From the IMG/VR virus record IMGVR_UViG_2917802685_000001, positions 90,159 to 154,158 of that record: a stretch of 64,000 bases of DNA; one strand, 5' to 3'. Below the pieces are notes generated by a model. The model did no database searches. It was not told where the DNA came from and worked only from the letters and a program-made list of their open reading frames with translations. This DNA is from a virus (taxonomy: Duplodnaviria; Caudoviricetes). Of this stretch, positions 1,097-24,148 are shown in pieces (position 1 is the first letter of the stretch; every line of letters starts with the position of its first letter). The translations under genes and the position numbers were made by a program.

Positions 1097-1130
1097 TTGA
1101 CACTGGCAACAACTGTTGCTGTAGAGTGGG
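1097..1130 (+). promoter_or_regulatory. Early promoter P1 with palindromic operator (19-bp spacer)
   Basis: TTGACA-19nt-TAGAGT; GCAAC-AACT-GTTGC at 1106-1119. Confidence 0.85.
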
Positions 1131-1169
1131 ACGCGTCCCGCCGGACACCACCACGAAGGAGCACACCCC

Positions 1170-2600
1170 ATGAGCGTGATCGAGATCAAGCGCAAGCCGA
1201 CCGCCCGCCAGGTCGAGGCGCTGCGCACCGGGACCACGAACCCCGAGGGCATCATCGAGGTGACCGCCGACAAGCGCACCCATGAGGGGCTCGTGGGCCG
1301 TGGCCTGGCCGACTGGAAGCGCCCCGAGACCCTGGGGCTCGGCCGCAGCGTCCACGGTACGGCCCTGTGCGTGATCAACAGCCAGGGGCGTGACTACCTC
1401 GCCAAGCTGGACGGTGTGGAGATCACCCGCGACGACGTGGCCGAGGGCAAGCGGCTCGCGCTGGCCTACCTCGGGTTCGGCGAGCGCCGCCGGGAGGCCG
1501 AGCAGGCCCCCGCCTCCGTGGTGTTGAAGGGTGAGTTCGCCCGGGTGCGCCGCGTGATGCGCCGCGCCATGCGCAACGCCGGTGCCGAGGCCGCGAACAA
1601 CGCGCTGAACCAGTACAACCGCACTCACGCGCTGCTGCTCGCGGCGCGTAGGTTCGACCAGGAGGACGCGGCCACGGCCGCGCAGGACACCACCACCACG
1701 ACCGAGGAGGCCCCCGTGGCCGAGACCCCCGTGCACGACCCCTACGCCCCGACCCCGGGCATCGACGTGGACGGACGCCCGTACGCCGTGGGGGACACCG
1801 TGGAGTCCACCCACCGCGCCCGCACCGGCGCCCGGCGCGGTAAGGCCGCTGAGGTGGGCACCGTGACCGCCGTGGTTGACGGGCGCCCCGTGGTCCGCTT
1901 CACCACCGGCGACCAGGACGAGACCGACGTGCGCCCTGACCTGTTCCGTATCACCACCCCCGCCGCGCCCGTCAACGAGCCTGCCGACTTCCGGGGCCTC
2001 ACCCGCGACGACGTGGCCCACGATGCCGCCCAGGCGCTCGCGACGCTGTCCGACGACGACCGCGCCACGGTCGAGGGCAAGGCACCCTCGGTGGTGCTGG
2101 GGCTGGCGTTCCGCCGGGCGCAGACGGCATGGTGCGCCACCCGCCGGGAGCACACCGCCGAGGAGTCGGCCGTGTACGACCGTCAGGCGAACATCGCGAG
2201 CGCTGCGCTGATCTTCGAGCGAGCCGACGACCCCGAGGCCGCCGCCACCGCGCGCGCCGACGACTTCCGCATCACGAACGCCGAGCGCGCCGCCAAGGCC
2301 AAGCGCATCGAGGAGGCCCGCGCTCGGGCGCTCGTCGTCGAGTGGGCGAACTCCGAGCCCTACCGGGGTTACGCCGTGCGCACCGAGGACCGTGGCCACG
2401 GCATCATCGCCGTCTACGTCCGGGGCAGCGCCGACGAGAGCAGCAAGATCGAGAAGGCGGGCAACGCGTACGCCCGGGAACACCTCACCTTCGAGCCGGG
2501 CCTGTCGGCCCACGCGAACGGGGGCGGGGAGTTCTTCCAGGGTGAGTACATCGCGCAGATGATCTACACCACGAAGCGGCTCGCCCCGCGCGAGGACTGA
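1170..2600 (+). CDS. Multidomain protein with N-terminal winged-helix-like domain and central SH3/KOW-like segment
   Basis: RBS AAGGAG; N-terminus paralogous to 5518 ORF (RKPTA...RTH.G...VIN..GR.YLAKLD). Confidence 0.8.
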   Translation: MSVIEIKRKPTARQVEALRTGTTNPEGIIEVTADKRTHEGLVGRGLADWKRPETLGLGRSVHGTALCVINSQGRDYLAKLDGVEITRDDVAEGKRLALAYLGFGERRREAEQAPASVVLKGEFARVRRVMRRAMRNAGAEAANNALNQYNRTHALLLAARRFDQEDAATAAQDTTTTTEEAPVAETPVHDPYAPTPGIDVDGRPYAVGDTVESTHRARTGARRGKAAEVGTVTAVVDGRPVVRFTTGDQDETDVRPDLFRITTPAAPVNEPADFRGLTRDDVAHDAAQALATLSDDDRATVEGKAPSVVLGLAFRRAQTAWCATRREHTAEESAVYDRQANIASAALIFERADDPEAAATARADDFRITNAERAAKAKRIEEARARALVVEWANSEPYRGYAVRTEDRGHGIIAVYVRGSADESSKIEKAGNAYAREHLTFEPGLSAHANGGGEFFQGEYIAQMIYTTKRLAPRED

Positions 2601-2704
2601 CACCAGGGCGCCCAGGAGCGCCGACTAGCGCCCGGTCGACCCCACCGGCCGGGCGCGCCCCGCAGGACCACCACACGCCAGCACGGCCACGAGGAGACAC
2701 CACC

Positions 2705-3148
2705 ATGAACGAGACCATCAGCCCCGCCGCCCGCGCCGTCCTGGGGATCATCGTCACCGTCACCGCGACGGGGGAGTACGCCCGCGCCCGGCTCGCGTTC
2801 GGCGAGGGCAGCGAGCACGCGGGCATGGTCGAGATCGGCATGGCCGACGGCACCAAGCGGTACGTCACCGCCATGGAGATCGCTCCGGCCCAGGGGTTCC
2901 CGATTCAGATGCGGGCCATCCCGGTGTACCCGGACGCCGCCGACGGTTCCAGCCGCCCCATGGGACTGTGCCAGAACGAGGGGTGCGGGCTGGTCGAGTC
3001 GAACGTCATCGACGTGGTGGCCACCAAGGGAGCGCGCTACACCTGCGGGGACTGGTACGTGAAGCGGGGAGGGCGTGACGTGAAGGCGCCGACGGCCACC
3101 GTGTGTACCCACTGCTACGCCCAGGGGCGTACGCCTTTCAGCAGCTGA
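2705..3148 (+). CDS. Hypothetical protein with Cys pairs (possible Zn binding)
   Basis: RBS GAGGAG; CQNEGC and CTHC. Confidence 0.75.
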   Translation: MNETISPAARAVLGIIVTVTATGEYARARLAFGEGSEHAGMVEIGMADGTKRYVTAMEIAPAQGFPIQMRAIPVYPDAADGSSRPMGLCQNEGCGLVESNVIDVVATKGARYTCGDWYVKRGGRDVKAPTATVCTHCYAQGRTPFSS

Positions 3149-3230
3149 CGCAGCATCACCACGGGCGCCCCGACCACACCGGGGCGCCCCGCCTGGCAAC
3201 GACCACACGACCACGCCCAGGGGGGCAGCA

Positions 3231-3707
3231 GTGAGCACACTGGAGACGTTGACGCGCTACGTGTGGGCGGAGTCGCCCAGCCTCGCATGGGGACTGGTGA
3301 ACCTGCGGGAGGCGGATGACGGCGCATGGCTCTCCGGGCAGGTCCACACCGCCCAGGAGGACGCGGAGCGCCAGGAGGACAAGCGCACGGGGACGGCTCT
3401 CTACCGGGTGACGCGCACGAGCACGCTCGCCGACGAGAGCACGCCCGCCCCCGAGGGGGAGGACTGGGTGTTCACCTACAGCACCGAGGGCCGACACGAC
3501 GTGTGGAGCAAGCCGAATTGCTACAGCTCTTTCCCTGGCGTGAAGCGGCTCGATGGGTTCTGGACGTTCCCGGAACCCAGGGAGCCTATCGAGCGGGCAG
3601 CGTGGGCGAACCTGGAGCCGCGCACCGTGGGGTACGGGACAGCGTTCAGGGCGTATCTGCTGGCGTGGTCGGTGGACGTGGTGGGAGGGCAGCAGGGGGA
3701 CGAGTAG
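3231..3707 (+). CDS. Hypothetical protein
   Basis: GTG start, GC3 bias. Confidence 0.7.
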   Translation: MSTLETLTRYVWAESPSLAWGLVNLREADDGAWLSGQVHTAQEDAERQEDKRTGTALYRVTRTSTLADESTPAPEGEDWVFTYSTEGRHDVWSKPNCYSSFPGVKRLDGFWTFPEPREPIERAAWANLEPRTVGYGTAFRAYLLAWSVDVVGGQQGDE

Positions 3708-3865
3708 CCAGGGGCAGGGACTACCGGCGGCAGGGGCAGGGGACAGCATCCCGCCCCTGCCGTTCTGTGTGGGTGCGTGCGCATATGGGGTGAGTCGGAC
3801 ACCCCTCGGAGGGGGCGAGACCCGGGCCGGGCCAGAGCGCTCCGGAATTGATGGGGCGCACCCGC

Positions 3866-3899
3866 TTGACACGGGCAACGACTGTTGCCCTAGAGTGGG
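3866..3899 (+). promoter_or_regulatory. Early promoter P2 with operator (19-bp spacer)
   Basis: TTGACA-19-TAGAGT; GGGCAAC-GACT-GTTGCCC. Confidence 0.85.
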
Positions 3900-3926
3900 T
3901 ACTCCGCCACACCATGAGGAGCAGCA

Positions 3927-5351
3927 ATGGGCATCACGATCTGCAACGGCAAGCGAGTCGAGGGCTACGACCCCAACAGCGGCAGCAACAGTGAGGCCGC
4001 CGTGGCCGCCCACAACGCCGAGTGCCACGAGCGCACCTACGAGGGCGCGGTGCTGCGCCTGCGGGAGCGCAACGGCTACGACGACAGCGACTTTTACGCC
4101 CTGGTGTGGGACGAGGAGCAGCAGCGGGTACGGGAGATCCAGTACGCGACCACCCGGGGGTGGACGTACCACAACGGGGCGAGCATCGACGCGACGCACG
4201 AGGTGATCGCCAAGGCGGTCGCGCAGATGACCGAGGCGCGGTTCGCCCTGGTGCAGGAGGACTACGCCCAGACGCCGCGCAAGGAGTACACGGCGCGCGC
4301 CACGGTCAAGGGCGCAGCGGTCGAGGGTGTGATCGCGTGGGTGGGCAAGTCGCGTAACCGGTACATCGACATCGCCCGCTACGGGATCAAGGTCGAGGGG
4401 CGCAAGGGCTACGTGTTCCGTGACGCGACCGACGACGACTTTGAGTTCGACGTGCCGCCGGTGAGCGAGGCGGACATGATCACGTGGCGCAGCAACTGTG
4501 AGCACAACGTGCGTGCGGAGCTGGCGCAGGCGCAGGCGATTGCCGACCAGCGTGACCCGCGCCCCGCTGCTCCGGCCCCGGGGACGATCGTGGATGCCCA
4601 GGAGGAGGACGAGACGGGCATGCGGCTGTACGCGGTGGGTGAGTCGTTCTGTGAGGACGGCTGGGCGCAGCAGGTTGCGGCGGCTGTGGTGGACGAGTCG
4701 GCGGCTGAGTACACGGTGATGGGTCACCGGGCGGACGGGTCGAAGATGCCCGCCCGTGAGGTGACGGTGTTCCGGGCGCTGGGCATGGTGGCGCGGTGGG
4801 TGGAGAACGACGGGGCGCAGGTGTGCCACGACGGGCGTGGGGTGGTGCGGATCGTGCGGGAGGACGGGGCGCGGCTCATGCTGGCGCCGGTGCGCCCCCA
4901 GGAGGCCGCCCAGGGCCCCCAGGAGGACGCGGAGCGCCCCGGGGTGGCCGAGGAGACCCAGGAGGCCCCTACGGGCGCTGAGACGGCCGAGGGGGGCGCC
5001 CAGGAGGCGCAGGGGGCCGAGGAGCGCCACGACATGGTGAGCGGCCTCCCCATGGGGCAGATGGCTTGCCTGTGCGGGCTCACGGACGTGGATGCGCTCC
5101 TGGGGCACTGGGTGGCCACGGGTGTGCTGCCGGTGGTGCCGCTGGTGGAGATGAGCGGGGTGTGGCGGATCACGGGGCGTGGCGCCGAGGTGTACGCGGA
5201 GGGGGCGACGCAGGCGGAGGCGTGGGCGGACGCGGCGCGCCAGGGGTTCGAGCGGGACTACTTCCACGCGATCACGCACCTGAGCATGGCGGAGCTGGAG
5301 GCCCTCACCGCGCCCCAGGAGGCCGCTGTCGAGGGTGAGCGCGTGGCGTAG
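3927..5351 (+). CDS. Multidomain hypothetical phage protein
   Basis: RBS GAGGAG; N-terminal ERNGYDDSDFYA...YATTRGW motif typical of phage proteins. Confidence 0.8.
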   Translation: MGITICNGKRVEGYDPNSGSNSEAAVAAHNAECHERTYEGAVLRLRERNGYDDSDFYALVWDEEQQRVREIQYATTRGWTYHNGASIDATHEVIAKAVAQMTEARFALVQEDYAQTPRKEYTARATVKGAAVEGVIAWVGKSRNRYIDIARYGIKVEGRKGYVFRDATDDDFEFDVPPVSEADMITWRSNCEHNVRAELAQAQAIADQRDPRPAAPAPGTIVDAQEEDETGMRLYAVGESFCEDGWAQQVAAAVVDESAAEYTVMGHRADGSKMPAREVTVFRALGMVARWVENDGAQVCHDGRGVVRIVREDGARLMLAPVRPQEAAQGPQEDAERPGVAEETQEAPTGAETAEGGAQEAQGAEERHDMVSGLPMGQMACLCGLTDVDALLGHWVATGVLPVVPLVEMSGVWRITGRGAEVYAEGATQAEAWADAARQGFERDYFHAITHLSMAELEALTAPQEAAVEGERVA

Positions 5352-5445
5352 CTGCGGATTCCGTTGCTCTCGCCGGTGGGCCGACCGTGAGTTTTCGTTG
5401 CGACGGCCCTCGGTGGGTGCGGATTTCGTTGTTTGGGCGCCCCCT

Positions 5446-5479
5446 GGTACACGGGCAACAACTGTTGCGCTAGAGTGGG
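5446..5479 (+). promoter_or_regulatory. Early promoter P3 with operator
   Basis: GGTACA-19-TAGAGT; GCAAC-AACT-GTTGC. Confidence 0.8.
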
Positions 5480-5517
5480 CACCCCGCCAGACACTGAGAC
5501 ACACCGAGGAGCACACG

Positions 5518-6816
5518 ATGGGCGACCTGATCACCCGCAAGCCGACCGCGATCATGATCGAGCTGCTGCGCCAGGGCGCGGCGAGCCCCAAGGGGATCAT
5601 GTCGCTGCTCGACCACAACGACCGCACCCACGACGGCATCCTCCGCCGGGACATGGCCGACGTGACGCCGGAGCCGGGCGCTACGCACTCGTGGCTCGTG
5701 ATCAACGACCGTGGGCGCGCCTACCTGGCCAAGCTCGACGCGGCGCAGCAGGAGCCCGTGAGCGCCCCGCAGACGGCCGAGGAGCACCCGGTGGCCCCCA
5801 AGGGTCCGGCGCTGGCCGACATCGCCCGTGTGAGCCTGGAGACGGTCACGCTGGGCACCGGCGAGGCTGCCCGGGTGCGCCCCACGTATGTGGTGCTGGC
5901 GTACGGCAGCATCCACCAGTTCGCCGACATCGATGGCACGTGGGTGGAGGTGTGCGGGCGCTGCGGCGGCTCGGGTGACATGCCGTACAAGCACATGCAC
6001 GAAGGGGTGTGCTACGGCTGCAACCGCACGGGGCTGCGCCCCGACATCTTCACCGGCACCCAGGAGCAGCGGGACGCGTTCGTCTACCCGTGGGCGCTGC
6101 GCAAGGAGCGTGAGCGCGTGGCCGCCGAAAAGCGCGCCGCCAAGATCCACGCCAAGCGCGTCGCCGCCTGGCAGCGCTGGGAGGCCGCGAACGGTGAGCT
6201 GATCACCTGGTGCCGCTCCCTGACGCCGGACAGCGTGGAGGAGTACGACGAGGGGCGCCAGTCGCTCGCCGACACCCGCGAGGAGGCCGAGCGCATCCTG
6301 TGCGAGGGCGAGACCCTGGTGCGCTCCGGCCAGTTCGAGGACGGGGTGCACGCGGGCCGCTGGTGGGGGGACTTCCACATCGTGGTGCGTAGCGAGGTGT
6401 TCAACAGCTACGGGCACCGCGCCGCCAACCTGATCAAGGACGTGCGCGAGGGACACGAGCCCCTCGACGGGCGCGGCACGGCGCTGCTGACCAAGGTGAT
6501 GCGCAGCGCGGTGCAGGCGGCTGCGACCACCCGGTACGCCGGGCCGCTGGGCGCTGAGGTGACCGTGGTCGGCCGGGTGAAGCGCACCAAGATCGTTGAC
6601 GGCTTCAACGCGTGGAGCCCCTCGCGCCGCATGATCGTCCTGGAGGGCACCGGCGAGCACGCGGGGGTGACCGTGGTCGCCTACTCCGGGAGCGCCGCCG
6701 CAAAGGCCCTCCAGGAGGGGCAGGAGGGCGTGACGGTGACCGGGGTGGTGTCCAAGCACAAGGAGTACAGCGGCGCCCGTGACACGAGCCTGAAGAGCGC
6801 CAGGGTCACGGCGTAG
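5518..6816 (+). CDS. wHTH + Zn finger + C-terminal OB-fold (putative ssDNA-binding) protein
   Basis: CGRCGGSG...CYGC; C-terminal VTGVVSKHKEYSGARDTSL OB-like pattern; RBS GAGGAG. Confidence 0.75.
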   Translation: MGDLITRKPTAIMIELLRQGAASPKGIMSLLDHNDRTHDGILRRDMADVTPEPGATHSWLVINDRGRAYLAKLDAAQQEPVSAPQTAEEHPVAPKGPALADIARVSLETVTLGTGEAARVRPTYVVLAYGSIHQFADIDGTWVEVCGRCGGSGDMPYKHMHEGVCYGCNRTGLRPDIFTGTQEQRDAFVYPWALRKERERVAAEKRAAKIHAKRVAAWQRWEAANGELITWCRSLTPDSVEEYDEGRQSLADTREEAERILCEGETLVRSGQFEDGVHAGRWWGDFHIVVRSEVFNSYGHRAANLIKDVREGHEPLDGRGTALLTKVMRSAVQAAATTRYAGPLGAEVTVVGRVKRTKIVDGFNAWSPSRRMIVLEGTGEHAGVTVVAYSGSAAAKALQEGQEGVTVTGVVSKHKEYSGARDTSLKSARVTA

Positions 6817-6884: not shown

Positions 6885-6918
6885 TTGACACGGGCAACGG
6901 TCGTTGCCCTAGAGTGGG
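6885..6918 (+). promoter_or_regulatory. Early promoter P4 with operator (19-bp spacer)
   Basis: TTGACA-19-TAGAGT; GGGCAAC-GGTC-GTTGCCC. Confidence 0.85.
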
Positions 6919-6949: not shown

Positions 6950-8542
6950 ATGACGAACACCACCGCCACCGCCGCCCAACTGCTCGCCGACGCCGCCGAG
7001 GCCGAGACCAACGCCGCCGCCCAGGACGCCGAGGCCGCCGCCCTGCTGCGCGCGGTCGAGCGTGAGCGCTCCTCCCTCGCCTACGCCCTCGCCGACCGCA
7101 GCAAGGCCCACCGCAAGGCCACCCGCCGCGACCGCCCCAACCGCCACGCCCAGGGCCGCGAGGAACTCCGCGTGATCGACGAGAAGCGCATCCCCCCCAT
7201 TGAGGCCCGCATCGCCGACCTCATGACCGACGTGGAGTTCCTCCAGGACGACGCCGCCCGCCTGCGCACCGTGGCCGCCGACTACCGCGCCCAGCACACC
7301 GCCGCCACCGCCGCCCCCGTCACCCTCACCACCCCGTACGCGTTCATCGACTGGTACGCCGACTACGGCACCGACAAGATCACCGACGCCGACGCGGACG
7401 CCACCCTCACCGCCGCCCGCACCGCCTACCGCACCACCGCCCCCCGCGAGAACGTCAAGATCACCACCGCCGACCCCCGCATCCTCGACGGCCTCACCAC
7501 CGCCGCCGCCGGATTCATCGCCAGCACCCGCGAGGACATCGACAACAACCCCGACATGGCCGGACTGCTCGCCCGCGACATCCGGCGCACCGAGCGATTC
7601 ATGGAACGCATCACCGAAGTGCGCACCCTGCTGCTCGACTCCGCCCAGGAAGCCCAGGAGGCGCAGCAGACGGCCCAGGAGGCCCCCGCCGCCCCCGCTG
7701 CGCCCCAGGAGGCCCCCACGGCCGCCGAGGGCCCCGTGCGCGCCGACTGGGAGCGTGACCTCCCCGCCACCCCGGCCACCGCCGCCCCCGCTGCTCCGTT
7801 CGACACCACGGACCCGGCCACGTGGGCCGAGACCCCCGAGGGGTACGAGTGGCGCGAGGTCGACGCCGAGACCGGCGAGCTGCAGCTGTTCGCCCCCGAC
7901 GGCACCAACCTCAGCGCCGCCCTCCCCGCCCCCACCGCCACCAACACCGAGGCGCAGATGATCGCCGCCCGCCCCCGCGTCACCACCCCCGCCCCCGCTG
8001 CGCCCCAGGGGCTCGCCGACTGGGAGCGTGACCTGTTGGCCGCCGCCCCCACCCTCCCCACCGCCGACCGCGAGCCCTCCGCCGATCAGAACATTGCCGA
8101 GGGCGACGACCCCCAGGGGCCCCAGGAGCGCCCCACCGTCGGTGAGAGCAGCGACCCCTACCCCACGCACAACACCATGGGCCGCTGCACCCACGGCCAC
8201 ACCTGCCGATTCCACCGCCCCACCGCCGCATGCGGTATCTGGATCCACCCCGACCGCACCACGTGCACCGCCACCCCCACCGTTCACGTCACGTGGACCG
8301 ACACCGTCAGGGGCCACCACCACGCCACGGTGACGCTCCCCGGCGGGGGCCGCGCCCGCATCACCTACGCCCCCCACGGCACCGTGTGGACGTACCTGGG
8401 GGCCGCCAGCATGGGCACCGGATCCCCCACCGTCGCCCGCGCCCGCTCCCTCGCCGACCTCATCACCCAATACGCCCGCCTCAAGGGCTACACCGCCGCC
8501 CGCATCGAGGAGTACGGCACCCCCGAGCGCCCCGCCCGCTGA
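6950..8542 (+). CDS. Coiled-coil / low-complexity hypothetical protein with two ADWERDL repeats
   Basis: RBS GAGGAG; heptad-rich N-terminus; Ala/Pro/Thr linkers. Confidence 0.8.
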   Translation: MTNTTATAAQLLADAAEAETNAAAQDAEAAALLRAVERERSSLAYALADRSKAHRKATRRDRPNRHAQGREELRVIDEKRIPPIEARIADLMTDVEFLQDDAARLRTVAADYRAQHTAATAAPVTLTTPYAFIDWYADYGTDKITDADADATLTAARTAYRTTAPRENVKITTADPRILDGLTTAAAGFIASTREDIDNNPDMAGLLARDIRRTERFMERITEVRTLLLDSAQEAQEAQQTAQEAPAAPAAPQEAPTAAEGPVRADWERDLPATPATAAPAAPFDTTDPATWAETPEGYEWREVDAETGELQLFAPDGTNLSAALPAPTATNTEAQMIAARPRVTTPAPAAPQGLADWERDLLAAAPTLPTADREPSADQNIAEGDDPQGPQERPTVGESSDPYPTHNTMGRCTHGHTCRFHRPTAACGIWIHPDRTTCTATPTVHVTWTDTVRGHHHATVTLPGGGRARITYAPHGTVWTYLGAASMGTGSPTVARARSLADLITQYARLKGYTAARIEEYGTPERPAR

Positions 8543-13135: not shown

Positions 13136-13176
13136 CGACGAATGACTTCGAGAATTCTCTACGACCCCACCTAATG

Positions 13177-13201
13177 GCATCAGTTGGTGCCCTAGAGTGG
13201 G
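13177..13201 (+). promoter_or_regulatory. Promoter/operator P5 (no clear -35)
   Basis: GCATC-AGTT-GGTGC-cc-TAGAGTGGG. Confidence 0.7.
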
Positions 13202-13231: not shown

Positions 13232-13858
13232 ATGCACGACACCGAAGCCCCGCACGAGACCGAGGTGATCGCCCTCCGCCGGGTCATCGCCGAGAAGCAC
13301 CCCACGGCCACCAGCACTCAAGTCCACGAGCACGAGGGCCAGTTCATCGGCATCACCTTCCGCGTGACCGCCCGCACGCTGCAGTACTTCCGCTGGGCCG
13401 ACCCCACCGGCGCCATGCCGGACAGCCCCCGCTACACCCGCGATCACGCCGCCGCCGTCCTCCTGGCCCGTGCCGAGCGCGCCGCCGTCCGCATCACCCC
13501 CGCCGCCCTATGGACGCGCGCCGGTGAGGAGCAGGTGTCGGTGCTGAAGGAGGACGCGGGTGACTGCCCCGACTGCGATAAGCAGCTCACCCGCGCCATG
13601 TTCCGCTGGACCGAGCGCACGCCGGACCCGGACCCGTTCGAAGCCAGCCTGTTCTCCGGCGACGGCCGGTTCTCCTCACTGCGGCACAGCGACGGCAGCC
13701 CTGACCACGAAGGCCCGTTCGGCCCCAGCTCCAAGCCCGCCCGCACCGCCTGCCCCGAGTGCCTGCGCCCCGGCGTCACCTTCCAGGACACCGGCTACGG
13801 CTGGAACGCCAACTGCCCGCACTGCGGCTGGCAGAACTACACCGACAGCGGCGACTGA
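13232..13858 (+). CDS. Zn-ribbon hypothetical protein
   Basis: CPDC, CPEC, CPHC motifs; RBS GAGGA. Confidence 0.75.
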   Translation: MHDTEAPHETEVIALRRVIAEKHPTATSTQVHEHEGQFIGITFRVTARTLQYFRWADPTGAMPDSPRYTRDHAAAVLLARAERAAVRITPAALWTRAGEEQVSVLKEDAGDCPDCDKQLTRAMFRWTERTPDPDPFEASLFSGDGRFSSLRHSDGSPDHEGPFGPSSKPARTACPECLRPGVTFQDTGYGWNANCPHCGWQNYTDSGD

Positions 13859-13864
13859 GCCAGC

Positions 13865-13896
13865 TAGACACGCAACACATGTTTCGATAGAGTGGG
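13865..13896 (+). promoter_or_regulatory. Promoter/operator P6 (17-bp spacer)
   Basis: TAGACA-17-TAGAGT; GCAAC-ACAT-GTTTC. Confidence 0.8.
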
Positions 13897-13970: not shown

Positions 13971-14846
13971 ATGGGAATCCCGAAGGTCGACGAGGCCACC
14001 ACGATCGCCCTGGAAGCGATCCGTGACGCCGCCCCCGGCCTGCTCACCATGACCGAGGTCTCCAAGAAGGTCGCCTCGCACGCAGACGTCTCCATCGGCA
14101 CTGCCCGCAACCGGCTGCGCGCCGCCGTCGCGGCTGGCGGACTCCTCGAACTCACCCCCGAGACGCGGAAGTTCTTCGTCGACCTGCCCGGCGAGAAGAC
14201 CGCCGGGGTCGGCCCGTTCTACATCGCCCAGGAGTGGACGGGCACCGGCCGGGAGCACCGCAAGGTGATCACCACCGACGACAGCAAGATGCGCCCCAGC
14301 TCCTACGGGCCCGGCAACACCACGTACCTGGCCGACCCCGAGCAGATCCGCGAGTACGTCCAGCAGCTCGCCGACGAGCAGAAGGCCAAGAGGGAGGCCG
14401 AGATCGAGGCGGCCAAGGCCGAGAAGAAGGCCGAGAAGAAGGAGTTCGGCCGCCGGTTCCCCGGCCTCCTGCGCACCCTGCGCCGGTTCCGCCTGCTCGG
14501 CACGGAGATCCGAGAGCACCGGGGCCGCTTCGCCTCGGTGAAGACCAGCACGCACCTCGAAGACGAGGACCGGCGCGGCAAGGAGGCGCTGGCGATCGAG
14601 GAGCGCGACGCGAGCCTGACCATCTACGCGTGGGGCGACGAGAACGTGGCCCTGCTCAATTCCCTCCTGACGGCCGGGATCGCCGCGCACATCGAGTCCC
14701 AGCCGCTGACCCTCTGCGCGCACTGCGGTGGCCGCATCCTGCAGGTCCCCCAGGGCGAGGACGGAGGGTTCTGGTGGCACATCGACTCCACCAGCGCGTC
14801 CTGCGCCCAGGGTGACACCAAGGCCGAGCCCGCGCAGGAGAACTGA
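13971..14846 (+). CDS. Putative winged-HTH DNA-binding protein with coiled coil and Zn site
   Basis: LTMTEVSKKVA..VSIGTARNRLRAAV; CAHC..WWH..C. Confidence 0.7.
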   Translation: MGIPKVDEATTIALEAIRDAAPGLLTMTEVSKKVASHADVSIGTARNRLRAAVAAGGLLELTPETRKFFVDLPGEKTAGVGPFYIAQEWTGTGREHRKVITTDDSKMRPSSYGPGNTTYLADPEQIREYVQQLADEQKAKREAEIEAAKAEKKAEKKEFGRRFPGLLRTLRRFRLLGTEIREHRGRFASVKTSTHLEDEDRRGKEALAIEERDASLTIYAWGDENVALLNSLLTAGIAAHIESQPLTLCAHCGGRILQVPQGEDGGFWWHIDSTSASCAQGDTKAEPAQEN

Positions 14847-17056: not shown

Positions 17057-17088
17057 TAGACGCGCAACTGTTGATGCATTAGAGTGGA
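17057..17088 (+). promoter_or_regulatory. Promoter/operator P7 (17-bp spacer)
   Basis: TAGACG-17-TAGAGT; GCAAC-TGTT-GATGC. Confidence 0.8.
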
Positions 17089-17178: not shown

Positions 17179-17376
17179 ATGCGCCCCATCCTGGCGTTCG
17201 CGCCCATAGTGCCGTCCGCCCTCACGCCCGCCGTCTGCCTGTGGCTGCACTTCCGCTACGGCTCCACCCCGCAGGGCAGCGCCCTGTGCTACAACCTCAC
17301 CGGCCTGTACGCGGTCGTCACCGTCGTCCTCGCCGTCGTCGGCCGCGCCTGGGTCGCCCCGGGGGCCGAGCAGTGA
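17179..17376 (+). CDS. Small membrane protein (2 hydrophobic segments)
   Basis: GAGGAG RBS; hydrophobic stretches. Confidence 0.65.
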   Translation: MRPILAFAPIVPSALTPAVCLWLHFRYGSTPQGSALCYNLTGLYAVVTVVLAVVGRAWVAPGAEQ

Positions 17377-19324: not shown

Positions 19325-19355
19325 ACGGCCGCGCCCAGACAATGGGCGCGGCCGT
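19325..19355 (+). terminator. Stem-loop terminator
   Basis: ACGGCCGCGCCCA / TGGGCGCGGCCGT inverted repeat. Confidence 0.7.
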
Positions 19356-19381
19356 TCCTTCCCGCCTAGGAGAACACCATC

Positions 19382-19690
19382 ATGACCCTCAGCCAGCGCA
19401 GGCTCTTCTGCACTCTCGGCGGCCTCGCCCTCATCATCGTGGGCGGCATCTTCTGGCTCGTCGGCGACGAGAACTCCGTCACCGGCGACAACCGGATGGA
19501 CCTCCACTCCGCCGCCGTGTGGGGTGAGGTGCTCAACTACGAGAGCACCGAGAAGAAGGACTACGACGACGCCAAGATCCTCAAGGAGAAGGGCGAGAAC
19601 GAGAAGACGACCGGGCTCGCCCTCGTCGCCTTCGGCGCGGTCGTCTTCGTCCTCCGCTTCACCGCCCGCCCGACGTCCAAGGTGGCCTGA
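19382..19690 (+). CDS. Two-TM membrane protein
   Basis: Two hydrophobic helices; AGGAG RBS. Confidence 0.75.
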   Translation: MTLSQRRLFCTLGGLALIIVGGIFWLVGDENSVTGDNRMDLHSAAVWGEVLNYESTEKKDYDDAKILKEKGENEKTTGLALVAFGAVVFVLRFTARPTSKVA

Positions 19691-19692
19691 CC

Positions 19693-20340: not shown

Positions 20341-20343
20341 CCC

Positions 20344-20592
20344 GTGATGAGGAGTGGGTACGTCTCCTGCGGCAAGGACCTCGGCCGCGAGCATCCGCCG
20401 CACACCTGCAGGCGACGCCACGGCCACAACACCGTGTGCAGTCACGCCCCCGACCTGAGCACCGACAGGGGCTTCAACGATGCCTGGGCCGAGTACTTCG
20501 CCGCGCACCCGGAGGTCCTGGCGAGCTGGGCCCACCAGAACGACCGCTGGCCCCCGGGGTACGGCGACCAGAAGGAGTTGCTCAGTGCCTAG
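20344..20592 (+). CDS. Small Cys/His protein
   Basis: C-x12-C-x5-H module. Confidence 0.6.
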   Translation: MMRSGYVSCGKDLGREHPPHTCRRRHGHNTVCSHAPDLSTDRGFNDAWAEYFAAHPEVLASWAHQNDRWPPGYGDQKELLSA

Positions 20593-21217
20593 GCGGTCCA
20601 TGAAGTCTCTGCTGCTGCAGCTGGCCGCCTCGCACCCGGACGTCGTCGCGGCCGAGAAGGCGGAGAAGGAAGCCCGCTTCAACTCCCCCGAGGCGCGCCG
20701 GGTGCGCTCCGAGCGTTCCACGAAGGCCGCCGCTACCGTGCGCGCCCGTCGGAAGGCCCGGGAGGCCCTGGAGGCTGACATGGAAGCACGCGAGCCCACC
20801 GGCCCGACCTGCGGCGCCTTCGGGATCATCCTGCAGGCCCAGGAGACTGAGTGCGATCGGCCGCCGCACAAGCACGGCGACCACCAGAATTGGGCGGGCG
20901 ACCGCTGGCCCAGCTACGAGGGGGAGTACGACGAGATGCTGACCGTGACCACTGACAACCTGCGCGAACTGCTGAACGGCCCGAGCGATAACCCGGTTCT
21001 GTACGTGGCCCGCGACGAGGACACGGGCGAGCCCGTCCGGCTGGAAGTGTGGGACGAGGCCCTCGTGCCGCACGGCGATATCGTGACGCGCAAGCACGAG
21101 CTGGTCGACGCACTGGGCGGCCCCGACCACCCGGACGGGGTGACCCAGGACGCCCTGGAGCACCTGCTGGAGGGCTACCAGGCCGAGGTCGACACCATGG
21201 AGGAGGCCAGCAGCTGA
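20585..21217 (+). CDS. Hypothetical protein
   Basis: AAGGAG RBS then GTG; central C..C..H..H. Confidence 0.7.
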   Translation: MPRRSMKSLLLQLAASHPDVVAAEKAEKEARFNSPEARRVRSERSTKAAATVRARRKAREALEADMEAREPTGPTCGAFGIILQAQETECDRPPHKHGDHQNWAGDRWPSYEGEYDEMLTVTTDNLRELLNGPSDNPVLYVARDEDTGEPVRLEVWDEALVPHGDIVTRKHELVDALGGPDHPDGVTQDALEHLLEGYQAEVDTMEEASS

Positions 21218-21219
21218 TC

Positions 21220-21396
21220 ATGAAGAAGGCAGCCGTGGTCTTCGTTCTGTACACCCTGGGTGGGGGGCTCGCCGCGTCGGTCGTGGCCCTCGTCGATCCG
21301 TCCATGGGTAGCCTGCCCGTCGCCGTCTTCCTGGGAGTGCCGTTCGGGGTGGCAGGAGGGCTTCACTCGTCCCACATCTACCTGAAGACGTGGTAG
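21220..21396 (+). CDS. Small membrane protein
   Basis: MKK followed by two hydrophobic segments. Confidence 0.6.
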   Translation: MKKAAVVFVLYTLGGGLAASVVALVDPSMGSLPVAVFLGVPFGVAGGLHSSHIYLKTW

Positions 21397-21413
21397 TTGA
21401 TGCAGCAGCAGGT

Positions 21414-21443
21414 GGGCCCGTCCCTTTCGCCGGGGGCGGGCCT
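21414..21443 (+). terminator. Stem-loop terminator
   Basis: GGGCCCGTCCC / GGGGCGGGCCT. Confidence 0.55.
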
Positions 21444-21461
21444 TCGGGTTTCCCGAACCGG

Positions 21462-21493
21462 TAGACACGCAACTATTGATGCCTTAGAGTGGG
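21462..21493 (+). promoter_or_regulatory. Promoter/operator P8 (17-bp spacer)
   Basis: TAGACA-17-TAGAGT; GCAAC-TATT-GATGC. Confidence 0.8.
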
Positions 21494-21520
21494 GCCACCG
21501 CCTAGGAACAAGGGGAACCG

Positions 21521-22021
21521 ATGAGCCTGCTGTACAACGCCCTCGTGGACGAGGCGCGCCGGATGCCGTACATGGAGCTGGAGCTGGAGCCGGTGTCTAC
21601 CGTCGGCCTCGACGAGCGGCTGCCGACCGGTGACCGGAAGGTCCGGGCAGACCTCCGGTTGATGATCAAGGCCATGGCGGACTCTGTCCTGGCCCTGCCC
21701 CACGCTCACGAGTACCAGTACCAGCTGGAGCGGGTTCCCTGGCCGAACAGCCGGGAGCGGGCGGCCCGCGCCGCGAACCGCTTCCACGACATCTCCCTGC
21801 AGGTACTGAGGGACATGGGCGCTGCCGCAGGCGAAGAGGGCGCCAGCATGTGGACCTGCGCGGCTCGGGTCGCGGAGATCCTCATGGAGGACTACGGCAA
21901 CAACCCGCACTGGAGCGAGGACTACCGCGAGGTCGCCAGCCAGTTCTTCTGCGCGATGCGCCCCGGCTACCTCGACGAGAAGGTCTTCAGTGAACTGCTG
22001 GCCGCCATGAAGGAGAGCTGA
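21521..22021 (+). CDS. Hypothetical protein
   Basis: RBS AGGGGA, GC3 bias. Confidence 0.75.
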   Translation: MSLLYNALVDEARRMPYMELELEPVSTVGLDERLPTGDRKVRADLRLMIKAMADSVLALPHAHEYQYQLERVPWPNSRERAARAANRFHDISLQVLRDMGAAAGEEGASMWTCAARVAEILMEDYGNNPHWSEDYREVASQFFCAMRPGYLDEKVFSELLAAMKES

Positions 22022-22599
22022 TGTTCCTGGTGCCCATCCCCGAGGGCTGGGACCCGGCCCCGCACGGCTGGCGCCCGGCCGAGACGAAGATCGAGCCGCT
22101 CGACGCGCAGGACGCCACGGTGTACCTGCTGCGCTTCGCGCCGCCGCTGCGGTTCCCGGCCTCGCTGGCCATCTTCCGCAACCCGGCGAGCGGCCAGCGC
22201 GTGGCCTGGTATGGGCCGCTGGCCACTGAGAACGCGGAGCAGATCGTCCAGGGCCCGGCGCTCGCGACGATCGGCATCTCGCCGGAGGACTGGGGGCCGG
22301 AGGACCGGCAGCCGGAGGTGAGCCGCCATGGCTGCGCCGAGTTCGACGAGCTGCTGGAGGGCAGCAGCCTGGGCTCGCCGCGCGCGAAGGCGCTGCGGGA
22401 GGGCTTCAGTGCCTACCGCCCGCCCGCGCCGGACGACGACGTGGCGGAGGAGCGGTGCCCGGAGTGCGAGAGCACCGACTACGGGCCGGTCGACATCGCG
22501 TGGCCGTTCGGTCCGCCGGAGCACAACCCGAACCCGCAGGTCAGCTACGTCGTCGGCGTGTGCATGAACTGCGGGTACACCACCGACAGTAATGAGTAA
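22021..22599 (+). CDS. Hypothetical protein with C-terminal Zn ribbon
   Basis: TGATG overlap; CPEC...CMNC. Confidence 0.7.
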   Translation: MFLVPIPEGWDPAPHGWRPAETKIEPLDAQDATVYLLRFAPPLRFPASLAIFRNPASGQRVAWYGPLATENAEQIVQGPALATIGISPEDWGPEDRQPEVSRHGCAEFDELLEGSSLGSPRAKALREGFSAYRPPAPDDDVAEERCPECESTDYGPVDIAWPFGPPEHNPNPQVSYVVGVCMNCGYTTDSNE

Positions 22600-22727
22600 G
22601 CAAAAAAACGGATTTCCGTCGATCCATTGAAGCTGTTTTGGCAAGATCGGTGACGGCCGCCACATCCTGACCTCCATCAGGCGCGGCCGTCTCTCGTTTA
22701 CCTCTTGACCCGCCACAGGAGGGCTTC

Positions 22728-23006
22728 ATGCCGCAGATGACCGCTACCGTCGAGCCGCTTGTACGCCTCGGCGGCACGATCCGCCTGACCGCCCGGCGCA
22801 GCGATGGCTGCACCATCGAGATGGAGCTGACCCGTGGCAGCTCGCGCGGGCACGTCACCCACGCCGTGACCAGCGAGGACGGCCGTCTGGTGTCCGTCGT
22901 GGCGCGGTCGTGGCCGCTGACCGGCGACGAGCCGAAGCTGGCCGCCGACGTCGCGGACGCAATCCAGATCGCCGAGAAGCGCTTCGCCGAGGGCGTCGCG
23001 CGCTAG
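22728..23006 (+). CDS. Hypothetical protein
   Basis: AGGAGG RBS. Confidence 0.7.
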   Translation: MPQMTATVEPLVRLGGTIRLTARRSDGCTIEMELTRGSSRGHVTHAVTSEDGRLVSVVARSWPLTGDEPKLAADVADAIQIAEKRFAEGVAR

Positions 23007-23061
23007 CCTCGAACTGCCCCGCCAGGCACCTATTCGTTCCGACTCACCGCCAGGAGTCCCC

Positions 23062-23436
23062 ATGGCCGCCAAGACCATCACCAGCAAACTGACCGCCGCT
23101 CAGCGCCAGGCCCTGCTCCACGCCGACCCCGCCACCGGCCAGATCAACGCCTCCGGCTGCAACTTCCGCGAGGAGCTGCGGCGCAAGCGCTACGCCGAGT
23201 CCTCGCACGGGACCTTGTACCTGACCGAGTACGGCTGGCGACTGCACGCCCTCCTGAAGGAGGAGCACAAGGAGTTCGCCGTCGCGGGCGTGCCCTGGAC
23301 GAAGATGCAGGAGATCACCGACCTGTACCTGCTGAACGGCCTGAGCGTCGAGGAGATCTCGCGCCGCACCCGTGTGACCGGCGGTGGGGTCATGGCCGTG
23401 CTCGCCTTCCGCCAGGTGCTGCCCGACGCCGCCTGA
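23062..23436 (+). CDS. Double HTH protein (wHTH + region-4-like HTH)
   Basis: LTAAQRQAL...LYLTEYG; ITDLYLLNGLSVEEISRRTRVT. Confidence 0.7.
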   Translation: MAAKTITSKLTAAQRQALLHADPATGQINASGCNFREELRRKRYAESSHGTLYLTEYGWRLHALLKEEHKEFAVAGVPWTKMQEITDLYLLNGLSVEEISRRTRVTGGGVMAVLAFRQVLPDAA

Positions 23437-23458
23437 ACGGCCTTCGTTCCACCCCATG

Positions 23459-23483
23459 GCATCCATTGATGCGTTAGAGTGGG
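23459..23483 (+). promoter_or_regulatory. Promoter/operator P9 (no clear -35)
   Basis: GCATC-CATT-GATGC-gt-TAGAGTGGG. Confidence 0.75.
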
Positions 23484-23516
23484 TCGATTGTCTACACCAC
23501 CCCCTGGAGCCCTGCC

Positions 23517-24119
23517 ATGCGCTTGTCCGAGCTGAAACCGCGAGAGCTGTACGCCACCAAGGCGGCCTCCCGAACGGCCGCCCGTCGCTCCACCGGCCCG
23601 GCGCTCCTGCTGGACACGCGCCTGTGGGAACTCAACCCCGGCCCGGCAGGGACCTCCTTCTTCCTGGCTCCCGCCGACGCCCAGTCCAGGTCGGGGGTCC
23701 AGGACAGCAGCACCGGCGCACGGCGGGGCATGCTCGTCATCCAGGCGAGCCCCGCCGCCGCCTTCACCAAGGGCTTCGACGAGCAGGCGGTGGCCGAGGA
23801 GCTGGCCGTCATCGGCCAGCAGAAGGACATCGAGAAGCTCGCCCGTCTCGTGCGGCGTGACGCCATCGACCGCGTCCTCGGCGACCTGCGCGAGAACCTG
23901 CCCGCGTCACTCATCCTCAACGTGACGCCGCTGCAGGCACTCGTCGACCCGTGGCAGGCCGCCAAGAAGTACCGGTGCACCGAGGCTGCCTGCAGCGCGG
24001 AAGTCAGCCTCGACGCCGCCGACCGTGTGCGCCCCCACGAGAACGACCAGGGCGATCGGTGCGCGGCCAGCCTCACGCACATGTCCGCCAAGGTGCGAGA
24101 GACCAACCTGATCCCATAG
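23517..24119 (+). CDS. Hypothetical protein with C-terminal C..C..H..C module
   Basis: GGAG RBS. Confidence 0.7.
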   Translation: MRLSELKPRELYATKAASRTAARRSTGPALLLDTRLWELNPGPAGTSFFLAPADAQSRSGVQDSSTGARRGMLVIQASPAAAFTKGFDEQAVAEELAVIGQQKDIEKLARLVRRDAIDRVLGDLRENLPASLILNVTPLQALVDPWQAAKKYRCTEAACSAEVSLDAADRVRPHENDQGDRCAASLTHMSAKVRETNLIP

Positions 24120-24148
24120 ACAGGCAACAGTTGATGCAATAGAGTGGG
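24117..24148 (+). promoter_or_regulatory. Promoter/operator P10 (17-bp spacer)
   Basis: TAGACA-17-TAGAGT; GCAAC-AGTT-GATGC. Confidence 0.8.

What the first reader, a model, noticed from the sequence alone, without database searches (positions are those of the whole stretch)
1097..24148. Ten-member promoter/operator regulon in two geometries: a possible single-factor switch
Seen: all ten sites have a GCA(A/T)C-N4-G(A/T)TGC-type palindrome (single mismatches at P5 and P6) ending exactly 2 nt before TAGAGTGG. The first four (1097, 3866, 5446, 6885) have 19-bp spacers, with perfect TTGACA at three and GGTACA at one. Four (13865, 17057, 21462, 24117) have TAGAC(A/G) with 17-bp spacers. Two (13177, 23459) lack a -35 and have GCATC left half-sites. 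Known: a 19-bp spacer containing a dyad is the hallmark of MerR-type activated promoters. Inference: one regulator could activate the 19-bp class while repressing the 17-bp class, or simply repress all ten as a lysogeny repressor. The MerR-fold-like HTH at 26384 and the XRE-like HTH at 26680 are candidates.
Basis: partly seen in the sequence, partly recalled or inferred. Interest (0 to 1): 0.75.

Follow-up and report, generated by a model that had tools for sequence, protein, structure and literature searches.

The report
Repeated promoter-operator cassettes of a phage-plasmid
A Streptomyces virus that also lives as a plasmid starts 19 of its gene blocks with the same host-type promoter carrying a built-in palindromic docking site, and its relatives keep the same layout but swap the inner letters of the site; this points to one virus-encoded regulator (most likely a repressor) that switches the whole block, a familiar kind of circuit in a little-studied group.

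Summary
All ten sites are present at the stated coordinates, with the stated spacers and mismatches (TAGAGTGG: 10 found, 0.8 expected). The window truncates the set: the element is the circular 154-kb plasmid pRLB1-9.1 of Streptomyces sp. RLB1-9, a phage-plasmid, and it carries 19 such cassettes, all on one strand. The dyad never occurs outside a cassette.

Relatives give the main new evidence. Elements with 82-87% identical terminase keep the frame GCA-N8-TGC, 2 nt, TAnnnT, GG, but with other inner bases. I found four specificity types and no mixing of types I, II and IV within a genome. This is the signature of an element-encoded regulator evolving together with its operators.

The "two geometries, one-factor switch" idea is not supported. 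The 19-bp class exists only in types I and III, and orthologous promoters change class. Pfam MerR and sigma-70 region-2 profiles match nothing on the element. The 90-aa (77-aa as annotated by PGAP) protein at 26384 does have a MerR/excisionase-type fold, but it is missing from the type IV element.

The regulator remains unidentified. The protein at 26680 and a probable tandem-HTH protein outside the window are the best candidates.

This scan noted a similar promoter-palindrome cassette array earlier on other DNA (e1-3670225), described as a ~155-kb Streptomyces phage-plasmid. The circuit is sound and ordinary in kind: interest moderate.

The parts
1097..1129 (+). Cassette P1: TTGACA, 19-bp spacer holding GCAACAACTGTTGC, TAGAGTGG. 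It lies 42 nt before the ATG at 1170.
3866..3898 (+). Cassette P2: TTGACA, 19-bp spacer holding GCAACGACTGTTGC, TAGAGTGG. It lies before the gene at 3927.
5446..5478 (+). Cassette P3: GGTACA (poor -35), 19 bp, GCAACAACTGTTGC, TAGAGTGG. It lies before the PGAP start at 5518. The cassettes at the same place (conserved upstream flank) in G006/G007 and G010 have no -35.
6885..6917 (+). Cassette P4: TTGACA, 19 bp, GCAACGGTCGTTGC, TAGAGTGG. It lies before the PGAP start at 6950.
13150..13159 (.). GAGAATTCTC palindrome 17 nt upstream of the P5 dyad. The same word occurs twice in the intergenic region of the WhiJ-like regulator outside the window, so it is probably a second regulator's site.
13177..13200 (+). 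Cassette P5: no -35, GCATCAGTTGGTGC, TAGAGTGG. It lies before the gene at 13232.
13865..13895 (+). Cassette P6: TAGACA, 17 bp, GCAACACATGTTTC (one mismatch), TAGAGTGG. It lies before the PGAP start at 13971.
17057..17087 (+). Cassette P7: TAGACG, 17 bp, GCAACTGTTGATGC, TAGAGTGG. It lies before the gene at 17179.
21462..21492 (+). Cassette P8: TAGACA, 17 bp, GCAACTATTGATGC, TAGAGTGG. It lies before the gene at 21521.
23459..23482 (+). Cassette P9: no -35, GCATCCATTGATGC, TAGAGTGG. It lies before the gene at 23517.
24117..24147 (+). Cassette P10, the last of the 19: TAGACA, 17 bp, GCAACAGTTGATGC, TAGAGTGG. It lies before the TTG start at 24179.
26278..26316 (+). Dyad-less promoter of the next operon: GCATATGC at the -35 position and TAGAGTGA as -10. 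It is conserved in type I and type II relatives, so it is not under the cassette operator.
26423..26656 (+). p77: a small protein with a MerR/excisionase/BldC-type winged-HTH fold. It is not detected in the type IV element, so it is unlikely to be the common regulator.
26680..27228 (+). XRE182: a weakly HTH-like 182-aa protein found in all four operator types, with a putative recognition helix that differs in each type. It is a candidate cassette regulator, not proven.

Best explanation
Each site is a complete start signal for host RNA polymerase (principal sigma, HrdB type). It consists of a -35 box, a spacer, the -10 box TAGAGT and a GG(G) discriminator, followed by a short leader with a ribosome-binding site.

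A 14-bp two-fold symmetric operator (GCAWC-N4-GWTGC) is built into the spacer, always 2 nt from the -10 box. One regulator encoded by the element binds it, probably as a dimer or as a tandem-HTH protein. A protein bound between -31 and -15 would keep polymerase off all 19 promoters at once. This would silence the roughly 50-kb block of mostly unknown, early-type genes (it also holds a minus-strand island of integrase, RiPP and WhiJ-like genes), either while the element sits in the cell as a plasmid or once later genes are on.

The different -35 boxes and spacer lengths (19, 17, none) most likely set the basal strength of individual promoters. They are not evidence for two modes of action.

Shown: the cassette anatomy, its copy number, its position before genes, and its lineage-specific variants. 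Inferred: protein binding, repression, and the identity of the regulator.
For: 1. There are 19 cassettes on one strand. Each lies 30-127 nt before an annotated start with an RBS. In one case the ATG sits exactly 7 nt after TAGAGT, which is a leaderless start at the expected +1.
2. The boxes fit the Streptomyces consensus of TANNNT and NTGACC with variable spacers (PMC4895711).
3. The dyad is never found outside a cassette in any of the genomes examined.
4. Relatives with 82-87% identical terminase keep the frame GCA-N8-TGC-NN-TAnnnT-GG but change the inner bases in all copies together. Type I is GCAWC (G000, G001-G003). Type II is GCAYAT..ATRTGC (G006, G007; 9 each). Type III is GCATCT..AGATGC (G010; 10). 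Type IV is GCACT-N4-AGTGC (G324; 17). Types I, II and IV never mix within a genome; type III lies within the degenerate type I pattern.
5. Orthologous promoters carry different operators at the same place. The first cassette, with a TTGCAA -35, is one example across types I-III.
6. Repressor and operator motif are known to diverge together in this way in heteroimmune Cluster A mycobacteriophages (PMC6550527).
7. The element is a plasmid in an isolated strain and encodes capsid, terminase, ParA and a Rep-like protein. It therefore needs a way to keep lytic genes off.
Against: - No binding, transcription start or expression data exist; no RNA run was listed.
- The regulator is not identified, and none of the candidates is clean. 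XRE182 differs between G006 and G007 at two helix positions although their operators are the same. The tandem-HTH protein at genome 45878-46516 has nearly invariant predicted contact residues across types.
- No stand-alone (autoregulatory) operator exists.
- A protein bound in the spacer could also be an activator.
- The right half-site is more variable than the left, and position 9 is T in 16 of 19 copies. The site is therefore not perfectly symmetric.
Confidence: 0.68

Rival explanations
1. Single-factor dual switch. A MerR-type protein under-winds the over-long 19-bp spacers and so activates that class, while the same protein blocks the 17-bp class.
For: - Seven of the 19 cassettes have a 19-bp spacer with the dyad centred in it, six of them with TTGAC(A/G).
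- The same pairing (TTGACN with 19 bp, TAGACA with 17-18 bp) recurs in type III.
- A small protein with a MerR/excisionase-type winged HTH is encoded just after the block.
Against: - Types II and IV have the same cassette frame with no 19-bp promoters.
- Orthologous promoters switch between 19 and 17 bp.
- MerR_1 and HTH_17 profiles find nothing on the element at E <= 1.
- p77 has no coiled-coil dimerisation helix and its recognition helix is acidic. It is absent from the type IV genome.
- 19-bp spacers fall within the normal Streptomyces range (PMC4895711).
Confidence: 0.07
2. The dyad is a positive element. An element-encoded activator, or a factor that re-targets host polymerase, must bind it for any cassette to fire. 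The block would then be a timed (early or middle) lytic class rather than a repressed one.
For: - Two cassettes of G000 (three by the scan's score cut-off) and about half of those in types II and IV have no recognisable -35 box, so they may need help.
- The dyad is locked to the -10 box at a fixed 2 nt, as if part of the promoter itself.
Against: - Six cassettes have near-perfect TTGACA plus TAGAGT and should fire unaided.
- A site filling the spacer is the classical position for occlusion.
- No sigma factor is encoded.
Confidence: 0.13
3. A host regulator binds the dyad. The element borrows a chromosomal regulon's operator, so that host physiology controls the block.
For: The exact 24-nt pattern occurs at conserved chromosomal loci in several actinomycetes. 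One locus, shared by three Streptomyces species, also shares the -35-like CAGACGC.
Against: - The 31 hits equal the roughly 35 expected by chance in 596 Gb (own arithmetic).
- The Saccharothrix and Williamsia hits are autoregulatory sites of their own TetR genes.
- Close relatives of the element carry four different operator types, which a conserved host factor would not explain.
Confidence: 0.05
4. The conserved cassette is chiefly a recombination joint for shuffling gene modules, and the palindrome has no regulatory role.
For: - One G001 cassette is a hybrid of two neighbouring G000 cassettes, with the gene between them missing.
- Gene content between cassettes varies greatly among relatives.
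- Two tyrosine recombinases and an Xis-like protein are encoded.
Against: - Five-bp arms around a 4-bp centre are far shorter than tyrosine-recombinase core sites.
- The strict 2-nt phasing with the -10 box points to transcription, and so does the concerted change of inner bases in all copies.
- Homologous recombination between 40-50-bp repeats explains the hybrid.
Confidence: 0.04

Closest known systems
Phage P1 C1 repressor with its dispersed operators (own knowledge)
   Same: A phage that lives as a plasmid. One repressor acts on many operators scattered over the genome, each at a promoter of a lytic operon.
   Different: P1 operators are asymmetric 17-mers at varied positions relative to the promoter. 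Here the site is a 14-bp dyad in fixed phase with the -10 box, and the repressor is not identified.
Streptomyces phage phiC31: c repressor and conserved inverted repeats (CIRs) beside a family of conserved early promoters (own knowledge; the 1990s papers are not in the searchable library)
   Same: A Streptomyces phage with many copies of one inverted repeat in intergenic regions of the early region. The repeats are bound by the phage repressor, and the early promoters are highly similar to each other.
   Different: As I recall, phiC31 early promoters are not HrdB-like, and the CIRs are separate 17-bp elements near the promoters rather than built into the spacer. The genome type also differs: here a roughly 154-kb relative of the Bxz1/E3 group kept as a plasmid.
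Cluster A mycobacteriophages (L5, Bxb1): immunity repressor with about 30 operators/stoperators (PMC6550527)
   Same: Tens of sites in one orientation. The motif consensus differs between heteroimmune lineages and tracks repressor divergence.
   Different: Stoperators are asymmetric 13-mers, are mostly not in promoters, and block elongation. Here every site is inside a promoter.
MerR-type promoters (merT, zntA, copA, soxS, tipA) (own knowledge)
   Same: A dyad centred in the spacer between -35 and -10. Seven cassettes have the 19-bp spacer typical of these promoters.
   Different: Most cassettes have 17-bp spacers or no -35, and relatives have none of 19 bp. No MerR-family protein with a coiled coil and effector domain is encoded.
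KorA/KorB global regulons of IncP plasmids (own knowledge)
   Same: A plasmid-wide set of identical palindromic operators at promoters, co-ordinating many operons.
   Different: The proteins are unrelated. The ParA partner protein here is only 26% identical between G000 and G007 but 68% between G000 and G006, so G006 and G007 carry different partner proteins although they share one operator type. It is therefore not the binder.

Membership tests
Host sigma-70/HrdB-type promoter | A -10 hexamer TANNNT, and a -35 hexamer resembling TTGACN at 16-19 bp | tested here: met
   TAGAGT is present in 18 of 19 cassettes and TAGTGT in one. A -35 with at least 4 of 6 matches is present in 16 of 19, at 17 or 19 bp. 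The consensus is taken from PMC4895711.
Host sigma-70/HrdB-type promoter | Lies upstream of genes at a leader distance typical for the host | tested here: met
   The distance from the -10 end to the start codon is 30-127 nt with an RBS. One ATG lies 7 nt after TAGAGT, a leaderless start.
Host sigma-70/HrdB-type promoter | A mapped transcription start 6-8 nt after the -10 box | not testable with these tools
   No RNA run holding this DNA was listed.
Phage/plasmid repressor-operator regulon (P1 C1, phiC31 c/CIR, L5 gp71 type) | Many dispersed copies of one specific site, far above chance, at promoters of the silenced genes | tested here: met
   19 copies against an expectation of 0-1.5. All are inside promoters and none lies elsewhere.
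Phage/plasmid repressor-operator regulon (P1 C1, phiC31 c/CIR, L5 gp71 type) | The site consensus changes between related elements, in all copies together (immunity-type variation) | tested here: met
   Four types share the frame GCA-N8-TGC-NN-TAnnnT. Types I, II and IV never mix within a genome; type III falls within the degenerate type I pattern.
Phage/plasmid repressor-operator regulon (P1 C1, phiC31 c/CIR, L5 gp71 type) | A cognate DNA-binding protein encoded by the element, whose reading head tracks the site type | tested here: inconclusive
   XRE182's helix differs in each of the four types, but also between G006 and G007, which share a type. The tandem-HTH protein is constant within a type but nearly constant between types too. 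p77 is absent from type IV.
Phage/plasmid repressor-operator regulon (P1 C1, phiC31 c/CIR, L5 gp71 type) | Demonstrated binding and repression | not testable with these tools
   Needs EMSA or footprinting and reporter assays.
MerR-type activated promoter | An over-long spacer of 19-20 bp at all regulated promoters | tested here: not met
   Only 7 of 19 cassettes in G000 qualify, and none of 9 in G006, 9 in G007 or 17 in G324. Orthologues switch class.
MerR-type activated promoter | A dyad centred in the spacer | tested here: met
   The 14-bp dyad has 3 nt on one side and 2 nt on the other in the 19-bp class, and 1 nt and 2 nt in the 17-bp class.
MerR-type activated promoter | A MerR-family regulator (winged HTH plus antiparallel coiled coil plus effector domain) encoded nearby | tested here: inconclusive
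   No MerR_1 or HTH_17 match on the element at E <= 1. p77 has the winged-HTH fold only, at Z 4-6.4, with no coiled coil.

The most novel reading that the evidence does not exclude
This family of roughly 155-kb Streptomyces phage-plasmids carries a natural set of at least four mutually exclusive operator specificities written into one invariant promoter frame (GCA-N8-TGC, 2 nt, TAnnnT, GG). The operators would be read by a regulator with no recognisable relatives (XRE182, which has no PDB fold match). That would make a ready-made orthogonal repressor/promoter kit for Streptomyces and a clean system for studying how a whole regulon re-tunes its operator in step with its repressor.
Probability: 0.25. 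Interest if true: 0.6.

Novelty: new member of a known kind. Interest (0 to 1): 0.4.

Why it matters
If confirmed, these cassettes define the early (or plasmid-silenced) transcription units of a barely studied group of large actinobacterial phage-plasmids, and they show that the group has split into several immunity-like types. The constant promoter frame with exchangeable operators would be a useful source of orthogonal, host-polymerase-dependent switchable promoters for Streptomyces engineering. As biology it is a new instance of a well-known design (one repressor, many dispersed operators), not a new principle.

Tried and rejected
- RNA evidence: no RNA holder was listed for the window DNA, so no start sites could be read.
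- megablast of the block against cultured phages: no match.
- Metagenome scan with the XRE182 profile: nothing found. Of 401 Streptomyces genomes, only one held a relative, and it gave type IV.
- k-mer counting over whole genomes was swamped by coding words. Restricting to intergenic DNA worked.
- Regulators considered and set aside:
  - The 414-aa winged-helix protein at genome 26817-28061 looks like a replication initiator.
  - The 79-aa GerE protein exists only in type I.
  - The WhiJ-like XRE protein has its own palindrome, GAGAATTCTC, twice in its own intergenic region.
  - The ParA partner protein is 68% identical to G000's in G006 but only 26% in G007, although those two share one operator type.
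  - The leaderless 110-aa gene after cassette 68968 is absent from other type I genomes.
  - p77 is absent from type IV.
- XRE182 model: only one of five models was confident, and neither Foldseek nor VIA-align gave a meaningful match. The Atlas gave only weak HTH leads at 0.80.
- Host-regulon idea: the genome-wide pattern scan gave 31 hits, the number expected by chance.
- Generic E. coli-type promoter scan: it finds only one of the ten sites, because it demands TATAAT-like boxes and 16-18-bp spacers.
- Literature: searches found no description of these cassettes or of pRLB1-9.1 regulation.

Full report
**What the window is.**
The window is the last 64 kb of a 154,158-bp record. That record is identical to the circular plasmid pRLB1-9.1 of Streptomyces sp. 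RLB1-9, a soil isolate from France. The plasmid encodes an HK97-fold capsid protein, a baseplate protein, DNA polymerase III alpha, a DnaB-like helicase, ParA and tyrosine recombinases. Its large terminase is about 30% identical to those of Rhodococcus phage E3, Gordonia phages and the Bxz1/Myrna/I3 mycobacteriophages. It is therefore a phage-plasmid.

**Checking the observation.**
- TAGAGTGG occurs ten times in the window, always on the + strand. Shuffles give 0.8.
- The set is cut by the window edge. The whole element has 19 cassettes between 64829 and 114305, all on the + strand. One has TAGTGT and one has TAGAGTGA.
- The perfect dyad occurs nine times against 0.0 expected.
- The loose form GCWWC-N4-GWWGC occurs 16 times, and 15 of those are in cassettes. 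The remaining cassettes have a G or a mismatch in the right half. The only other hit lies inside a coding region.
- The dyad therefore never stands alone, including in front of any regulator gene.

**Anatomy of a cassette.**
- Aligned on the -10 box, the information lies in tAGACa / TTGACA, GCAAC, a T at dyad position 9, G(T/A/G)TGC, two free bases, TAGAGT and GGG.
- The left half-site is GCAAC in 16 and GCATC in 3 copies. The right half is more variable: GTTGC 10, GATGC 5, GGTGC 3, GTTTC 1.
- Every cassette lies 30-127 nt before a PGAP-annotated start with a Shine-Dalgarno sequence. The exception is 68968, where the ATG begins 7 nt after TAGAGT, which is a leaderless start at the expected +1.
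- Genome-wide start-site mapping in S. coelicolor gave a -10 of TANNNT, a -35 of NTGACC, variable spacers (62% between 15 and 20 nt), a most frequent 5'-UTR length of 30-39 nt and 21% leaderless mRNAs (PMC4895711). The cassettes fit this picture of a housekeeping-type promoter.
- The element encodes no sigma-70 region 2.
- Many leaders carry CCGCC(A), a feature treated by another agent (e1-5777743). I did not pursue it.

**Relatives: the decisive evidence.**
The type I pattern recurs in several IMG/VR contigs that are close relatives with 97% identical terminase. Complete relatives with 82-87% identical terminase have no TAGAGTGG at all. Intergenic k-mer counts and direct inspection showed that they carry the same cassette with another operator.

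| Type | Genomes | Operator and -10 box | Cassettes |
|---|---|---|---|
| I | G000, G001-G003 | GCAWC-N4-GWTGC, TAGAGT | 19 in G000 |
| II | G006, G007 | GCA(T/C)AT(C/G)(C/G)AT(A/G)TGC-AT-TAnnnT | 9 each |
| III | G010; one more in L128 (contig from the same metagenome) | (C)GCATCT-YR-AGATGC(G)-C-TA(G/C)(G/C)GT | 10 |
| IV | G324 (155.7-kb contig of a Streptomyces genome) | GCACT-N4-AGTGC-GC-TAGGGT/TAGGTT | 17, two with a 1-nt gap |

- All four types fit one frame: GCA, eight bases, TGC, two bases, TAnnnT, usually GG. The centre of symmetry sits 9 nt before the -10 box.
- A cross-scan shows that types I, II and IV never mix within a genome. Type III is a subset of the degenerate type I pattern.
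- Orthologous promoters carry different operators at the same spot. The first cassette, with its unusual TTGCAA -35, is an example in types I, II and III.
- More distant relatives differ. G008 (67% identical terminase) has no spacer dyad. G009 (52%) has another cassette, with TCATTTTAAAATGA near -50 and a different dyad abutting TAGAGTGG.

A host factor, a polymerase contact or a structural signal would not change in all copies at once between close relatives. A cognate, element-encoded DNA-binding protein would. The same behaviour is documented for repressor and stoperator motifs of heteroimmune Cluster A mycobacteriophages (PMC6550527).

**The two geometries.**
- In G000 the classes are real: seven cassettes with 19 bp, ten with 17 bp and two without a -35.
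- Types II and IV have only 16-18-bp spacers or no -35.
- Pairing cassettes by their downstream sequence shows class changes at orthologous promoters. G000 77880 (TTGACG/19) pairs with G010 58804 (TTGTAA/17). G000 94049 (TTGACA/19) pairs with G010 75699 (TTGTAA/17). G000 89816 (TAGACG/17) pairs with G001 60011 (TTGACA/19). By upstream-flank context, the counterparts of P3 (GGTACA) in G006, G007 and G010 have no -35; by downstream sequence P3 pairs with G010 73807 (TTGTAA/17).
- The first genes after the cassettes are unrelated to each other, apart from one 80-residue N-terminal similarity. The class is therefore not tied to a gene family.
- A mechanism that needs two fixed geometries is not conserved. 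The differences are better read as promoter-strength variants.

**Is there a MerR?**
- Pfam MerR_1 and HTH_17 find nothing on the element at E <= 1, with positive controls ringing.
- Its best structural neighbours are almost all MerR-superfamily winged-HTH domains or excisionases. They include CbpM (Z 6.4), CvkR, SkgA, GlnR, GIsul2 and Pukovnik Xis, TipAL, SoxR, BmrR, RacA and BldC, with rmsd 2.3-2.9 A over 50-60 residues.
- The fold call is supported, though each score is modest.
- The protein ends after the second wing helix and so has no coiled coil. The helix in the recognition position reads QDELDDL, which is acidic.
- A profile of p77 finds nothing in the whole type IV genome at E <= 1, while it finds G003 and G006 at about 1e-44.
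- It may be an excisionase-like partner of the two tyrosine recombinases. It is unlikely to be the common cassette regulator.

**Who binds the dyad?**
I compared candidate DNA-binding proteins across the four types.
- **XRE182 (window 26680-27228).** It occurs in all four types. Its putative helix 3 differs in each: PQPFVSLVGNY in I, SPSFTAMLGNY in III, (A/V)PAFT(A/T)LVTNY in II and SLHFVALMQNY in IV. L127, whose operators (GCATC/GCACC) fall within type I tolerance, has the type I helix. Against it, G006 and G007 differ at two helix positions yet share operators. Its HTH assignment is weak (Pfam HTH_37 E 0.0017; PHROG E 0.00095; Atlas 0.80). Its model has no meaningful fold match.
- **The 212-aa protein at genome 45878-46516.** It has an N-terminal HTH_31 domain and probably a second, MBF1-like HTH. 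It is constant within types and differs between them mainly in helix 2, while the predicted base-contacting residues of helix 3 hardly change. A tandem-HTH monomer would fit the unequal conservation of the two half-sites.
- **The WhiJ-like regulator.** It has its own palindrome, GAGAATTCTC, twice in its own intergenic region.
- **The 414-aa winged-helix protein.** It looks like a replication initiator.
- **The GerE protein.** It is confined to type I.
- **The ParA partner protein.** It is 68% identical to G000's in G006 but only 26% in G007, although those two share one operator type.
- **p266 (genome 63992-64792).** This zinc-finger protein sits just upstream of the first cassette and is present exactly where cassettes are. 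Its finger differs between G006 and G007.

The regulator therefore remains open. My rough odds are XRE182 0.3, the tandem-HTH protein 0.25, another or unrecognised protein of the element 0.35, and a host protein 0.1.

**Mechanism.**
A dimer-sized site filling positions about -31 to -15 is the classical position for blocking polymerase. The element must keep roughly 50 kb of early-type genes quiet while it replicates as a plasmid. I therefore favour simultaneous repression of all 19 promoters, at 0.68. An activator reading is possible for the -35-less cassettes (0.13). The dual switch (0.07), a host regulator (0.05) and a pure recombination joint (0.04) are less likely, for the reasons given under rivals.

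**Comparison and novelty.**
The design of one regulator with many dispersed promoter-embedded operators and lineage-specific operator types is that of P1 C1, phiC31 c/CIR, L5 gp71 and KorA/KorB. Three features are particular here: the strict phasing of a 14-bp dyad with the -10 box, the four exchangeable specificities in one frame, and the lack of a recognisable repressor. This scan has already described what appears to be the same kind of cassette array on another ~155-kb Streptomyces phage-plasmid (e1-3670225). I file this as a new member of a known kind, of moderate interest.

Noticed in passing
window 13150-13159; genome 71679, 77220, 77250: The perfect palindrome GAGAATTCTC occurs four times in the element, against about 0.03 expected from base composition. 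Two copies lie in the intergenic region between the WhiJ-like XRE gene and its HATPase neighbour. One copy lies 17 nt upstream of the dyad of the -35-less cassette P5. It is probably the WhiJ-like regulator's operator, which would put P5 under two controls.
   Followed up: partly
window 26278-26316: The operon holding p77, XRE182 and a Zn-ribbon protein has its own promoter: TAGAGTGA, no dyad, and the palindrome GCATATGC at the -35 position. It is conserved in type I and type II relatives. The same word also lies next to GAGAATTCTC at genome 71664.
   Followed up: partly
genome 68968-68982 (+) and 68229-68242 (-), outside the window: Two divergent leaderless genes start 7-8 nt after a TAGAGTG(G/A) box, in a small island specific to type I elements next to a tyrosine recombinase. 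The + gene (110 aa) is absent even from other type I genomes.
   Followed up: partly
G001 (IMG/VR 3300046506_000327), reverse-complement coordinate about 59995, versus genome 89800-91287: One G001 cassette has the upstream flank of G000 cassette 89816 joined to the core and leader of cassette 91280, and the gene between them is missing. Cassettes therefore act as joints for gene loss or shuffling by recombination.
   Followed up: partly
L030, L052, L058 (three Streptomyces species); L048: A chromosomal site, CAGACGC-GCAAC-N4-GTTGC-CC-TAGAGTGG, is conserved at one locus in three species, followed by about 400 nt without a clear gene. L048 has one dyad flanked by back-to-back -10 boxes (CCACTCTAGG...CCTAGAGTGG). 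The overall hit number equals chance, so their relation to the element is open.
   Followed up: partly
L039, L041, L042, L053 (Saccharothrix); L044, L045, L059 (Williamsia): The same 24-nt pattern lies directly before TetR_C_11-family repressor genes of about 206 aa (the Pfam check covered L042 and L045). These are probably their own autoregulatory operators, a chance or convergent match to the phage-plasmid cassette.
   Followed up: partly
genome 63992-64792, outside the window: The 266-aa protein just upstream of the first cassette has a C-x2-C...H-x4-5-H finger, an Ala/Lys/Pro-rich basic tail and a C-terminal coiled coil. It is present in all four operator types and was not found in G008 or G009, which lack the cassettes.
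   Followed up: partly
G009 (IMG/VR 3300048999_000192), e.g. 57116-57170: This distant relative uses another cassette: the palindrome TCATTTTAAAATGA near -50, then CTCCC..AATCCTTGGAG abutting TAGAGTGG, in about 11 copies.
   Followed up: no
all 19 cassettes, dyad position 9: The base just 5' of the right half-site is T in 16 of 19 copies, while its mirror position is A in only 8. The right half is also more variable than the left, so the operator is functionally asymmetric.
   Followed up: no
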